Assembly (NCBI GenBank): GCA_951406725.2
Contig: OX597822.1
Span: 112,902,001 to 112,966,000 of the forward strand
Length of the DNA: 64,000 nucleotides
Direction of reading: 5' to 3'
Source: Octopus vulgaris
Taxonomy: Eukaryota
Part shown: positions 5,779 through 62,474 of the stretch, piece by piece
How the letters are laid out: each line of letters starts with the position of its first letter
Position numbering within the stretch: the stretch's first letter is position 1
Position numbers and translations under genes: made by a program
Notes under the pieces: model-generated
Databases searched by the model: none
Told to the model about the DNA's origin: nothing
The model's input: the letters and a program-made list of their open reading frames with translations, nothing else

Positions 5779-6144
5779 ACAAAAGTTATAATTCGTTTTG
5801 GGATTTGGTTTGCAAGATTCTTTATGTGAGTTCGTGTGTTGAAGCATATTTTGTTGTTGTCCGGGGAGAGTCATTTTCTTTTTGTGTCTTATAATGTAAC
5901 GCACTCACCGGTAAAATTTCCACTTATTTCTTCTTTTTATTTTCTAAATTTTTCGTTGCGTCTTGCAACTTTTTCAATAGTCTTTTCAACAGGCAGAGTC
6001 AAGACTATTGAAAAGGTTGCAAGACGTAACGATAAGTTTAGGAATATAAAAATAAGAAATAAGTGGAAATTTTACCGGTGAGTGTGTTACATTATAAGGC
6101 ACAAAAAGAAAATGACTCTCCCGTGACACAACAAAAGTTATAAT
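5779..6144. mobile_element. Fold-back element 1 (about 135-bp arms, tail, 14-bp TSD)
   Basis: Arms 5849-5984 and 6001-6136; direct repeat ACAAAAGTTATAAT at 5779-5792 and 6131-6144. Confidence 0.85.
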
Positions 6145-6327
6145 ATCCTTCACATTAAAGTGCAAAGCCTTTGAGAAATTCATAGAAAATATCATTTTTG
6201 AATAACAAGAGTGGTAATACAAGCAGTAGACTTAAGACAAACGGATAACGCGAACGCTTTCATTCCTTAATTAAAATCATAGTGCCGTTAGCAATTATAC
6301 GTATATATAAATATATGATATGCGCAC

Positions 6328-6655
6328 GCGTGGCTGTGTGGTAAGAATTTTGCTTTCCAGTCACATGTTTCACATGTGACACCATGGGCAAGTGTCCTCT
6401 ACTCTAGCCTTGAGCTGACCAAAGCCTTATGAATGGAGTTGGTAGACGGAAAGGAAAAGCGGTCAGTGTGTGTGTGTGTGTGTGTGTGTGTATGTGTGTG
6501 TGTGTGTGTGTGTGTGTGTGTGTGTGTGTATGTGTGTGTGCGTGTGTGTGCGTGCGTGCGTGTTTGTATGAGACTGTTGTTGGTGTGTTTACGTTCCCGG
6601 ACCTAGCGGTTCGGCAAAAGACTAAACGTTCTCCAAGGTGATAAAATATAAGGAT
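6328..6655 (+). mobile_element. SINE family B with internal (TG)n
   Basis: GTGGCTGTGTGGTAAG head; CCATGGGCAAGTG...GACCAAAGCCTT core. Confidence 0.85.
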
Positions 6656-8027
6656 AATATATATATATATATATATATATATATATATATATATATATAT
6701 ATATATATATATATATATATATATATACGTATATGTATATATATAATTTATATTCGTATATATACATATAAATTAAATGGTATTAATAATACATATACAA
6801 ATAGAAGTATTTATATATGTGAATATATATATATATATATATATATATATATATATATATATATATATATATGTCATATTTTCAATTCAAGAAGAAGCTC
6901 ATGTGTTATCATATATAACACAGACTAATATTAGCAAGGCATATAATAAAAGTATAATATTTAATAATTAACCATAAAAACCTATTCAGTAATTTCATAT
7001 CCTAATACACTTTATGATTAGTGATTGCAATTTAATTTGGTTACATTTCAAATATAGATAAAATATTGTCCATACACACCAGAGAGGAAATATATGAAAG
7101 TCTAAAAATTCTAATGATTAGCATGAGTTCGTTTTACTTATACTCTTCAAAAATGCAAATATATCAATATGCTTCACTCCTGTCTCATTCAACAGCTTAA
7201 GTGCTGCATGTTTGTTTGAAAAATTCAGTTGTAAATAGTGAATGATAACGTTTTAGATTAATCAGATTTGGAAGATTAATTTACTTAGTTTGAAATGAGG
7301 CTGAAATAATTATTTTGAAGACTTCGTATGGATACAATTTTGGAAACCAAATTATGGTTCTTTTCTGATTGGTATATTGTCTTTTCTCGTGAATGTTGTT
7401 TTGTAAGACAGTCTCACTTAAGTGATGGTCGTATGACTCGAACGAAAAGATATAAACGTTAAACATGGTAATAAAATTTTATACTGGAGAATAGTAAAGC
7501 AGCGTAAAGCAAGACGAAAGTAAGCTCCAAAGAGTCGCAGGTTTGATTCTGAATGGTAACCACCTAATGGTAGAAATGTTTTGGGGGAAAAATCTAAAGA
7601 CACAGTTTCTGTTCAGTTTTCTTAAAATAATTAGTGCATTCAAAAGTAATCAATGATATAAATATCAATGATCTAAAGGAGACCAAGTTTAATTAAAAGA
7701 TCATGGAACTACAATAGACTGAATGCACGAAGAGATAAATTTTGGGATTATTATTTATTCTCTTTAAACAATTCTTCCTGGCTTCCACAATGAAACAGAG
7801 TTTTACTCACAGCCAAACGATACATAATTACTAAATATTGGGAATAAAACAAGTTGGATATTTACCCATTCATCTATTTATTTCAAGTATCCGTTTTTTC
7901 TAAACTTTAGCAACTTCGGTCAAATGAAAACAACCAGCAGGAATCAAACAAATGTATATACTACCAAATATATATATACATATATATATGTATATATATT
8001 AATCGTAAGTGGTCCTTCTGGATATGT

Positions 8028-8512
8028 GATCATAAATAGTGACTTTTTGTACCACTATTAGTTAGCTTTCCGTGCCAGGTGAAACACTTCAGGCCGGAGT
8101 TGAGGGACACCCACCTTCTGAGATGTCACCGCTTCGTATTATATCAATAGCACAAAAATACTGTTTCGTTGTAACTTTTGTTTTCGCTAACCTCAAAGGG
8201 TTGAACAGTGTCACCGAATATAAGAAATATTGAAAGTAAAATATTTCATGTTACCAAAAGTGGACGGAACGTGACCTATTATGGAATTTAAAATTGACAC
8301 TTCACCGTCTCTAACGCTGATTCGTGCTCCGTACAATAATTTGATGTAGACCTCCATCTTGTAGCACCAACAATGAATTGTTTGCAGAATCCCCTATTTC
8401 CCTCTCCCCCTCTCTCCCTCTTTTCCTCTCTCGCCCCTCTCTCCTTCTTTTCCTCTCTCTCGCTCCATTTCTGTGAGAGAGATTTCTTTACTCATCTATA
8501 TGGCTTCGATTA
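8028..8512. repeat. About 480-bp dispersed repeat; inverted copy at 45473-46394
   Basis: Co-linear reverse-complement match, e.g. GTTACCAAAAGTGGACGGAACGTGACCTATTATGG. Confidence 0.85.
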
Positions 8513-8516
8513 ACTA

Positions 8517-59583: not shown

Positions 59584-59634
59584 AGCTTCCTGATGATTTC
59601 TTTTGAATGAAACAGTTCTAGTCCTGTAGAAGCT
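59584..59634 (+). ncRNA. Type I hammerhead ribozyme with intact core
   Basis: AGCTTC-CTGATGA-tTTC-tttt-GAAt-GAAA-CAG-ttctagtc-CTG-TA-GAAGCT. Confidence 0.85.
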
Positions 59635-59958
59635 CCTTCTATATAATAAATTAATTTACTCTGCTATGTATTGAGTACCTTATTTACTGTGGTTAACCCC
59701 GACTCAACCCGGGACCTACATATATATATATATATATATATATATATATATATATATATACTACAAAATTAGAGAATGGAAAACATACTTAAATCAGTAA
59801 AACATCAACTATCCGATGATACTCAATCCATACTTTAATACACCATTACATATGAGTAAAGGCAATATATAAAATGAAATGAGATATACAGTAATAGTAA
59901 AAGTAAAAAGATAAAGAGATATAAGTAAAAAATTTCAAATATAATATGCAAATAAATC

Positions 59959-60074
59959 AAAACTGACAGCTGTTTCGGCAGTGAGGACAGTCATACCTCA
60001 TTTAACCTATAAGCCATAAAGGCAGGTATAAATGAGGCATTAACAAGGATGCCCCACGGCCTCTTCAGAGAATT
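59959..60074 (-). ncRNA. Hammerhead with long structured stem II (inverted copy)
   Basis: Reverse complement of 61892-62007. Confidence 0.7.
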
Positions 60075-61891
60075 AAATTAAATTTGTTATAATAGTGAAA
60101 AATATTATATAATCATATACATATAAATATAAAAATATAAAAATGTAAAATATAAAAACTTATACATCATAATGCTACACTTATATAATATAATACACAT
60201 TTGTACAAAAAGGAAGGTAAACAGAACAAAATAAAACAAAATATATAACAGTGTATATATTAATATTAATAAGTACCGATATTATACATATTTGGCTAAT
60301 AGTTTTTTTTATAATTTTGCTTTATAATTATTTTGCTTTATAATTATTACCAGCCTCATATATTTAGTTTATATCTATAGTCCTCTGGATTTGTACTTTA
60401 AACTATCCTTCCATACATATTTACTTTCAACAATATAAAATATATATATTCACTTTATTTATTTTTATTTATTTCCCATTTTATTGTAATATTATCAATC
60501 TTTGCATCTAGTCTTCTATTCATTTATTTATTTGCCTATTTAAGTGTAGATGTTTACATACATATCAAGTCATCTAATTTGTTACCTATTTATTTTTTAC
60601 TTATTTACTTATACTGGTGTAGTTTTATACATACATATCTATCATTTATTTTTATTCAATTTTAATAATATATGAATACATATATACTAGTTTGTACTTA
60701 TAATTATGTGTATAACCGTATTTATTCCTTCGTATTTATTCCTTTTTATTTATTTTATCTCTTTTCATCTTAAGTCTTTATAATATAAAATTTATTTAAA
60801 ATTTCTGTGATGTTCTCATAAACGTTTACATTAATACTTCTCCTTCTATTCTTTAATGCATAAACTGGTATATTATGGCACTATATTTATTAAGTTAATA
60901 AGTGACTTATTTATAATATTTAAATTAATATATATCTTATATTTTATATTTTATAATTTAGCGTACTTAAAATCATAACAAACTTACGATAAACCTAACA
61001 ACCGTATGTTTACTCTGTAACAAACCGGTGTTATAAATTTTTAGTTACCCATGAAATAATTATCTGAATTAGTAACATACTGATATTTAAAAATATATTT
61101 ATATCTAAATTAAATATTTTATAGAATGCATGGATGGTTCTTTTTTTGTTATTGAGGCTCAGTTATAATTTTGAAGGACTAAATGTTAGCATAGTTGCTT
61201 CCCTTTTTTGTTTATCTAAGTGCTAGTTGTTGCTTGTGAATATGTATGTGTATACATATAACTATGTGTGTATGTGCGATTGATCTGTAGATGCGTGTGT
61301 GAATATTGGCGTTCCTTGACTAACCAACCGTATAATTTTCTTTTGTGATTTAAATTTCAAACCAATAGCCAAACGAATTAATCTAAATTTTCTTTACCTA
61401 GTGGTCAGCATTTCTTAACTCATAGTTATTTCGATCTTGAAAGGATGGACTTGGTGCTAACTTAACTGTATCTATTTTTAGTATTTTTTATTATTATTAT
61501 TTTTATTATTATTATTATTATTATTATTATTATTATTATTAATAGTAATTTTTATTAACTTTTATAGCTTGAGAATTTTATGAACTGTACCACGGATTTA
61601 ATTATTATTTTTCATCTCCATATGTGTTAGCCCTTTTTTTTTTTTTTTTTTTTATAAAAAAAACTATTAGCCAAATATGTATAATATCGGTACTTATTAA
61701 TATTAATATATACACTGTTATATATTTTGTTTTATTTTGTTCTGTTTACCTTCCTTTTTGTACAAATGTGTATTATATTATATAAGTGTAGCATTATGAT
61801 GTATAAGTTTTTATATTTTACATTTTTATATTTTTATATTTATATGTATATGATTATATAATATTTTTCACTATTATAACAAATTTAATTT

Positions 61892-62007
61892 AATTCTCTG
61901 AAGAGGCCGTGGGGCATCCTTGTTAATGCCTCATTTATACCTGCCTTTATGGCTTATAGGTTAAATGAGGTATGACTGTCCTCACTGCCGAAACAGCTGT
62001 CAGTTTT
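61892..62007 (+). ncRNA. Hammerhead with about 85-nt structured stem II and palindromic stem III
   Basis: CTGAAGA 61898-61904, GGC...GCC, GAAA 61990-61993, CAGCTG, TC; stem I weak. Confidence 0.7.
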
Positions 62008-62474
62008 GATTTATTTGCATATTATATTTGAAATTTTTTACTTATATCTCTTTATCTTTTTACTTTTACTATTACTGTATATCTCATTTCATTTTATATA
62101 TTGCCTTTACTCATATGTAATGGTGTATTAAAGTATGGATTGAGTATCATCGGATAGTTGATGTTTTACTGATTTAAGTATGTTTCTCCATTCTCTAATT
62201 TTGTAGTATTAATTTACGGTAATATTATTACCTTTACCCATTTAATACAATAGATGAACTGATTGCTTGACAATTTTTAACATCTATGTATTAATTTTGT
62301 TGGGTACCTATCTAGCAGTATATTGGATATATATTATCCCATGGTGGGTTGAATTTTCAACCCCTATCTCATTTTATAACCTATATATATATATATATAT
62401 ATATATACATATATATATATATATATATATATATATATATATATATATATATATATATATATATTATATTATAT

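What the first reader, a model, noticed from the sequence alone, without database searches (positions are those of the whole stretch)
5779..62381. A family of tailed fold-back retro-insertions with one shared architecture
Seen: four palindromic elements (5779-6144, 26067-26383, 32073-32627, 59759-62381) each consist of a full arm plus an unpaired tail and a truncated inverted arm. Elements 1 and 2 have dissimilar arms but homologous tails (TTCAACACACGA..TCACATAAA.AATCTT...CAAAT; a lone copy near 24321-24380). Elements 3 and 4 have homologous 170-180-bp tails and their inverted arms stop at nearly the same point. Elements 1 and 2 have 14- and 12-bp TSDs overlapping the arm end. Knowledge: Penelope-like elements form inverted pLTRs with a tail on one copy. 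Inference: non-autonomous Penelope-mobilised RNAs inserted by fold-back or twin priming, a steady source of long dsRNA hairpins that would be mis-annotated as MITEs.
Basis: partly seen in the sequence, partly recalled or inferred. Interest (0 to 1): 0.8.

Follow-up and report, generated by a model that had tools for sequence, protein, structure and literature searches.

The report
Two-ended Penelope-like retroelement stumps, octopus
Four one-tailed DNA palindromes in an octopus-like genome belong to two unrelated repeat families and are likely ordinary head-to-head, front-truncated insertions of Penelope-like jumping genes, an insertion pattern already described in other animals.

Summary
The four tailed palindromes are real, but they form two unrelated families, not one. 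Family A (E1, E2, lone copy): arm end plus tail read as the first ~30 codons of an ORF, with a bias to third-position changes; eight database proteins, one from Octopus bimaculoides, share just this segment. E1 has an exact 14-bp target duplication. Family B (E3, E4): 172-nt tail with no coding signal, a type I hammerhead-like motif in E4's arms, (TA)n flanks. Public contigs show many copies, ending at either the arm end or the tail end, each joined to (TA)n. Apices differ within both families, which argues against MITEs. This is the published Penelope-like (PLE) unit: inverted 5'-truncated pLTR, one-sided tail, TSD. No RT/GIY-YIG master carrying either tail was found, so PLE membership is inferred, and hairpin RNA was not shown. 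A separate Hydra-like PLE remnant lies beside E4. The scan reported this architecture before in other genomes. Small extras: B's tail is 4-5 times the usual length, and both ends of E1's duplication match the element at its two termini (6-7 nt), hinting at paired priming. Verdict: new members of a known kind; low interest.

The parts
5779..6144 (-). E1, family A: tailed direct copy (read on -), ~16-nt loop, inverted tail-less arm; 14-bp TSD at 5779-5792 and 6131-6144
5786..5874 (-). E1 ORF start (ATG at 5874, 1-nt frameshift soon after) running through the arm end into the tail
24293..24392 (+). Lone family A copy without an inverted arm; ATG at 24294, 33 codons open
26067..26383 (+). E2, family A: inverted arm 26072-26191, direct arm 26202-26321, tail to ~26371; 11/12 TSD-like repeat; ATG at 26292, 30 codons open
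32068..32627 (+). E3, family B: inverted arm, apex at the remnant of the hammerhead second core (32256-32267), direct arm, ~172-nt tail ending at (TA)n
59758..60314 (-). E4 inverted, tail-less arm; outer end joined to (TA)n 59720-59760; carries the hammerhead-like motif on -
60315..61651 (+). E4 spacer, 24% GC, no long ORF, (TAT)n and T run at its right end; element body or captured DNA, not resolved
61652..62209 (+). E4 direct arm, starting in a short T/A palindrome; 62209 is the short (tail-less) family terminus
61898..62003 (+). Type I hammerhead-like motif: CTGAAGA core, long stem II, GAAA, palindromic stem III, only 2-bp stem I
   Evidence: not found by Rfam
62210..62381 (+). E4 tail, 172 nt, no coding signal, small terminal hairpin shared with E3; long family terminus at (TA)n
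56432..59720 (+). Context, separate element: 5'-truncated, frameshifted Hydra-like PLE (RT thumb and GIY-YIG end at 57368; 3' UTR broken by microsatellites; clean hammerhead at 59590) ending at the (TA)n that holds E4; joining ORF and hammerhead into one element is inferred

Best explanation
These are likely short two-ended insertions of two unrelated Penelope-like retroelement families: each unit is two front-truncated copies of the element's 3' module joined head to head, one ending at the far terminus (with the tail) and one at the near terminus (without it). Shown: the asymmetry, two families, variable apices, an ORF start spanning arm end and tail in A, a hammerhead-like motif and two alternative termini on (TA)n in B. 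Inferred: a GIY-YIG/RT protein makes a staggered cut in AT-rich DNA; each nicked strand primes reverse transcription inside the RNA, one at each of the two start sites (their distance is the tail, 50-60 nt in A, 172 nt in B); both cDNAs stop early at variable points, in E3 at the foot of the stable hammerhead stem II, and are joined at their truncated ends; gap filling gives the TSD. The palindrome is thus a by-product rebuilt at each insertion. Family B is probably non-autonomous or is seen only by its non-coding end; family A is probably stumps of an unidentified coding element.
For: Apex differs within families: 118 vs 96 nt upstream of the ATG in E1/E2; at the hammerhead core in E3, but at least 240 nt further upstream and with a 1337-nt spacer in E4. 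Family A: ATG aligned in 3 of 3 copies, frame open in 2 of 3; 14 of 26 variable columns are third positions (binomial P 0.025, frame chosen after looking; pairwise permutation P 0.025, 0.053, 0.14). 7 of 11 profile hits and one O. bimaculoides gene model (19 of the first 20 residues as E2) share this segment and diverge about where the tail ends. Family B: 1405, 550, 92 and 26 contigs laid from 4 of 4 runs; loose ends of (AT)n behind 62209 (2 contigs in X3, 1 in X8) and behind 62375 (1 in X8); an E3-like tail end behind 62350; different sequences join just upstream of the hammerhead. No listed variant falls in the 25 core and stem-base positions, 10 fall in the 79-nt stem II insert. Fold z -4.5. 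Literature: Pen2a_Av has an adjacent inverted shorter pLTR, a 31-bp tail, a 9-bp TSD and the first 12 codons in the pLTR, 22 with the tail (PMC3846280); the tail is the stretch between two internal RT start sites (PMC11167929); Hydra and octopus Naiad PLEs target (TA)n (PMC8557442).
Against: No protein with RT or GIY-YIG carrying the A segment was found; 4 of the 11 hits (P0003-P0006; 3 of them read) are repetitive proteins matching only part of the profile. Family A shows no hammerhead in the arms held. The E4 motif alone is weak: descriptor scores of 9 or more arise 0.22 times per shuffled 64 kb, Rfam gives no hammerhead hit, stem I is 2 bp, and 0 of 25 against 10 of 79 is only suggestive. 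E3 and E4 arms do not align above shuffles (58 vs max 63). B's tail is far longer than the 30-40 bp described and has no coding signal. Neither tail resembles the neighbouring Hydra-like element. No strand-switch joint was seen in contigs (mostly short pieces). No empty site was seen.
Confidence: 0.85

Rival explanations
1. Same PLE origin, but the inverted arm is made by fold-back self-priming of a single cDNA or antisense RNA (or a template jump), not by priming from both target strands.
For: Short palindromes at the inverted junctions (T/A palindrome at 61644-61662; self-complementary stem III at the E3 apex); Arkhipova 2013 reads such junction palindromes as self-priming (PMC3846280).
Against: A fold-back copy should reproduce the tail or stop at random, but the tail-less arms stop within about 6-8 nt of one position in both families, and 62209 is a recurring terminus on (AT)n in other runs. 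E4's 1337-nt unpaired spacer and the 10-22-nt loops need an added step.
Confidence: 0.3
2. MITEs or foldback DNA transposons with an unrelated repeat abutting one end.
For: Small size and long inverted arms (E1-E3); no RT-coding master found.
Against: One-sided tail inside the TSD in E1, 14-bp TSD, variable apex, unrelated arms with related tails, a lone armless copy, ORF start crossing the arm/tail border, hammerhead-like motif.
Confidence: 0.05
3. Family A belongs to another retroelement class (for example a DIRS-like or LINE-mobilised element with 5' inversions), and only B is PLE-derived.
For: No hammerhead in A arms, no PLE protein match for the A peptide, TSD present.
Against: No poly(A) or simple-repeat 3' end; a 3' end lying inside an ORF start with two termini is the PLE signature (PMC3846280, PMC11167929); Naiad PLEs lack canonical hammerheads (PMC8557442).
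Confidence: 0.12
4. E4's near-perfect inverted arm is an assembly artefact (fold-back read).
For: 557 of 558 columns identical; the locus itself was not bridged by any contig; no genome held.
Against: The arm stops at a terminus that other runs show joined to (AT)n, and older E3 of the same family has the same layout with diverged arms.
Confidence: 0.07

Closest known systems
Endonuclease-bearing PLE insertion unit, e.g. Pen2a_Av of Adineta vaga (PMC3846280, passages read)
   Same: Adjacent inverted, shorter pLTR in head-to-head orientation; tail on one end; TSD of about 9-10 bp; ORF start in pLTR and tail; short palindrome at the pLTR 5' end; unrelated DNA captured between pLTRs.
   Different: Here no ORF body lies between the repeats; tails are 50-60 nt (A) and 172 nt (B) against 31 bp; TSD 14 bp in E1; no master identified.
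PAc (Poseidon of Anolis carolinensis) internal RT initiation (PMC11167929, first half of text read)
   Same: Two adjacent 3' termini inside the ORF start define the tail; AT-rich targets; hammerhead near the pLTR/ORF junction.
   Different: PAc initiates at sites reported as not homologous to the cut DNA; E1's TSD ends match the element for 6-7 nt at both termini. B's tail is non-coding by the tests here.
Hydra-clade PLEs, including Hydra-1_Obim (PMC8557442, passages and parts of the supplement read)
   Same: (TA)n targets, hammerhead near the 3' end with ACAG/CTGT-type stem III in several families, one family with a 5'-truncated inverted copy; present in octopus.
   Different: Short motifs from both tails were not found in the supplement (line breaks can hide matches); in those consensus sequences the hammerhead lies roughly 90-210 nt from the 3' end, in E4 about 480 nt.
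Non-LTR retrozymes (PMC7229834, passages; bioRxiv 10.64898/2026.07.22.740005, abstract and passages)
   Same: Non-autonomous, hammerhead-bearing, AT-rich, proposed PLE derivatives.
   Different: Those are head-to-tail arrays of 170-400-nt monomers; these are head-to-head units with a tail, and no tandem array was seen in the window.

Membership tests
Penelope-like elements (EN+) | PLE-type RT and GIY-YIG endonuclease encoded by a member of the family | tested here: inconclusive
   None in the four units; no master found; whole genome not available, so absence is not shown.
Penelope-like elements (EN+) | 5' truncation with adjacent inverted copy, head to head | tested here: met
   4 of 4 units; apices differ within each family.
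Penelope-like elements (EN+) | 3' tail on one end only, two alternative termini | tested here: met
   4 of 4 units; contigs end on (AT)n at 62209 and 62375. Lengths exceed the 30-40 bp described.
Penelope-like elements (EN+) | pLTR end and tail contain the ORF start | tested here: inconclusive
   Family A: ATG and third-position bias, but the peptide is not linked to a PLE protein. Family B: no coding signal.
Penelope-like elements (EN+) | Type I hammerhead in the pLTR (absent in Naiad) | tested here: inconclusive
   Motif in E4, remnant in E3, conserved core in contigs; not significant alone, no Rfam hit, cleavage untested; none in A arms.
Penelope-like elements (EN+) | TSD of about 7-14 bp or insertion in (TA)n | tested here: met
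   E1 14 bp exact, E2 11 of 12, E4 between (TA)n runs, E3 tail on (TA)n without a TSD.
MITE / TIR DNA transposon | Symmetric termini, fixed internal structure, short fixed TSD | tested here: not met
   One-sided tails, variable apices, 14-bp TSD.
Non-LTR retrozyme | Head-to-tail tandem monomers with canonical type I hammerhead, circular RNA | tested here: not met
   No tandem monomers in the window; circular RNA not testable.
Hydra-clade PLE (for family B) | RT phylogeny within Hydra | not testable with these tools
   No coding part held; only target preference and hammerhead form resemble the clade.

The most novel reading that the evidence does not exclude
PLE integration is homology-guided twin priming: both 3' overhangs of a 12-14-nt staggered cut pair for 6-7 nt with the RNA just past the two internal start sites, as E1's duplication shows at both ends (and E2's at one), and octopus carries a very abundant non-coding PLE parasite whose two start sites lie 172 nt apart, which would make primer-template pairing and tail length directly testable from genome data.
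Probability: 0.25. Interest if true: 0.55.

Novelty: new member of a known kind. Interest (0 to 1): 0.27.

Why it matters
The architecture is known, so the value is modest: two abundant octopus repeat families can be read as PLE stumps and not as MITEs or microRNA-like hairpins (Rfam's sub-threshold miRNA hits on E1 and E2 show the trap). If the 6-7-nt matches at both TSD ends hold genome-wide, they would settle how the inverted arm is primed, an open step of PLE transposition. Transcribed copies could be dsRNA substrates in an animal known for heavy RNA editing (recalled), but that is untested.

Tried and rejected
Whole-genome search: no genome held, so no copy table or empty sites. Rfam: no hammerhead among the 150 of 201 rows shown for the window, none among 8 rows for 59400-62400. 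Pfam on 6 ORFs: nothing informative for the PLE remnant (two further ORFs were not rescanned). Search for longer relatives of the remnant: 0 of 731 candidates. Search for a master of family A: 1 of 51 candidates (a chimeric gene model), 0 of 4573, 0 of 317 metagenome stretches, Atlas below 0.9, 18 short peptide, DNA or name terms plus 4 more in the Craig 2021 supplement gave no tail match. Family B tail pattern in metagenomes: 0. No coding frame for the B tail. No similarity between A and B, or between either and the other hammerhead-bearing repeats tested. Expression: no RNA holder listed on record; runs guessed to be RNA hold the sequence only as contigs, which show neither strand nor hairpin. 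Bins 61560-61643 had no cover because repeats were skipped; no inference drawn. Tail-end hairpins do not fold better than shuffles (z about -1). Ribozyme cleavage as the cause of E3's apex is rejected: pairing extends 5' of the predicted cut. Earlier scan notes by place and by sequence: none.
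Full report
Setting. The window is AT-rich animal DNA full of microsatellites and repeats. No genome is held. A named Octopus bimaculoides gene model begins with 19 of the first 20 residues that E2 encodes, so the host is likely an octopus; the species was not determined.

Observation. Self-comparison finds all four inverted repeats. 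After alignment, E1 pairs 125 of 135 bases, E2 118 of 120, E3 154 of 165 with two indels, and E4 differs by one indel in 558 columns around a 1337-nt spacer. E1-E3 score 220-232 against shuffle maxima of 33-50. Tails are related within pairs (E1/E2/lone 79-82%; E3/E4 74%) but not between pairs, and E1 and E2 arms do not align above shuffles. So there are two families. E1's 14-bp duplication is exact (14 of 5000 random zone pairs reach this). E2's is 11 of 12 in low-complexity sequence. E3 has none; E4 lies between (TA)n runs.

Family A. The three copies share an aligned ATG about 10 codons before the arm end. The frame is open through the tail in E2 and the lone copy and is shifted by one base in E1. 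Of 26 variable columns in 24 codons, 14 are third positions (P 0.025; the frame was chosen after inspection; pairwise permutation P 0.025-0.14). A profile search of 1.84 billion proteins gave 11 hits: 7 short predicted proteins that share the segment (motif CFNTRxHIKNL) and then diverge, and 4 repetitive proteins matching part of the profile, which I dropped (3 of the 4 were read). The seven come from unnamed Logan assemblies. This fits dispersed copies ending near the same point in an ORF start. No longer protein with RT carries the segment. The tail-less arms stop within about 6 nt of each other, while the apices lie 118 and 96 nt upstream of the ATG. In E1, six bases at one end of the duplication equal the element just at the short terminus, and seven at the other end equal the lone copy's sequence at the long terminus; in E2 seven bases match at the short terminus. 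The long-terminus match rests on one other copy, and E2 does not show it.

Family B. E4's arms hold a type I hammerhead-like motif (61898-62003) with a long stem II and palindromic stem III (fold z -4.5). Alone it is weak: equal or better descriptor scores occur 0.22 times per shuffled window, Rfam misses it, and stem I is 2 bp. E3 keeps the second core at its apex, although the arms between the anchors do not align above shuffles. Contigs from 4 of 4 public runs, picked from the 20 holders of the E4 spacer, pile on the arm and tail: 1405, 550, 92 and 26 records, many below 95% identity. Depth is no copy number, but the family is clearly multicopy. Of the 24 loose ends shown (144 not shown), (AT)n follows 62209 in two runs and 62375 in one, an E3-like tail end follows 62350, and different sequences enter just 5' of the hammerhead. 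Listed variants fall in 0 of 25 core and stem-base positions and 10 of 79 insert positions. No strand-switch joints were listed, so apex variation rests on the window alone. The 172-nt tail shows no coding frame.

Context. A frameshifted PLE 3' fragment at 56432-57368 resembles GIY-YIG clusters from molluscs and cnidarians (Atlas 0.96-0.97; PF01541 on 23% of one cluster) and, by eye, the Hydra proteins in the Craig supplement. A clean hammerhead of the Hydra form lies at 59590 (compare), and this element likely ends at the (TA)n that holds E4. It shares neither tail, so it shows that PLEs use these sites but is not the master.

Mechanism. Best reading (0.85 for PLE origin): a staggered cut, reverse transcription from both nicked strands at two internal start sites, early stop, head-to-head joining. 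The two termini and the variable apex are shown; the enzyme, the priming and the joining are inferred. Whether the second arm comes from the second target strand or from fold-back is open (about 0.3 for fold-back). MITE, other retroelement and artefact readings are given as rivals.

Known. PMC3846280 (passages) describes the inverted shorter pLTR, tail, 8-10-bp TSD, ORF start in pLTR and tail, head-to-head palindromes and captured spacers. PMC11167929 (parts 1-2 of 4) ties the tail to two internal RT start sites. PMC8557442 (passages; supplement parts 1, 2, 52 of 59 and searches) gives the general structure, (TA)n targeting, and octopus Naiad and Hydra families. PMC4209133 (passages) describes small palindromic stem III in PLE hammerheads. 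PMC13282606 (passages) lists 31 recently active PLE families in O. vulgaris and has no mention of palindromes or hairpins. PMC7229834, PMC8969392 (passages) and bioRxiv 10.64898/2026.07.22.740005 (abstract and passages) cover retrozymes and curation. In one search none of the 15 listed papers holds both 'twin priming' and 'pLTR'; searches listed no description of these octopus families. The library lacks many papers, and repeat databases were not searched, so novelty of the families is unproven. Earlier scan notes report the same architecture in other genomes; they are not independent evidence.

Verdict. Observation confirmed; interpretation partly supported; new members of a known kind; interest 0.27.

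Noticed in passing
window 56432-59720 (+): Hydra-like PLE remnant: RT thumb and GIY-YIG end, 3' UTR swollen by about 2 kb of TA/TG microsatellite, clean hammerhead at 59590, ending at the (TA)n in which E4 sits.
   Followed up: partly
window 32633-33970 (-); 15285-15512, 54976-55072, 63653-63798: Very AT-rich (16% GC) 1.3-kb element with a decayed Hydra-form hammerhead near 33030-32945; its (TA)n-joined end recurs three more times. Likely a further PLE-derived family; it abuts E3's tail across (TA)n.
   Followed up: partly
window 31895-32069 (-) and 49885-50056 (+): Two-copy 175-bp family (90% identical) with a minimal hammerhead-like motif with an altered first core, ending on (TA)n; one copy abuts E3's left end.
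   Followed up: partly
window 26745-26850 (+): Hammerhead-like remnant between two (TA)n runs, 400 bp from E2; does not fold better than shuffles.
   Followed up: partly
window 34720-34870 (+): Short frame resembling the C-terminal end of a PLE endonuclease (tblastn E 0.022 with the remnant above).
   Followed up: no
window 45078-45268: A fifth, decayed inverted repeat (68%, about 55-nt loop), not linked to families A or B.
   Followed up: no
window 37865-40997 (+): Near full-length LINE with APE endonuclease and RT in two overlapping frames (Pfam).
   Followed up: no
window 10919-11906 and 13861-14519: Several LINE 3' ends with long (AAT)n runs, forming a 292-bp inverted pair (11530-11821 and 13973-14264).
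   Followed up: no
window 60300-60345 and 61634-61662: E4's inner junction has a 16-nt tandem duplication, and a T/A palindrome of about 18 bp heads the direct arm; the spacer could be a later insertion at a former apex.
   Followed up: partly
window 61908-61917: A 10-base stretch of E4's stem II also occurs near the 3' end of the published octopus Naiad consensus (seen by eye); may be chance.
   Followed up: no
P0002 (UniRef A0A0L8I3J7): An O. bimaculoides gene model takes its start codon and first ~25 codons from a family A copy; mis-annotation or exaptation.
   Followed up: no
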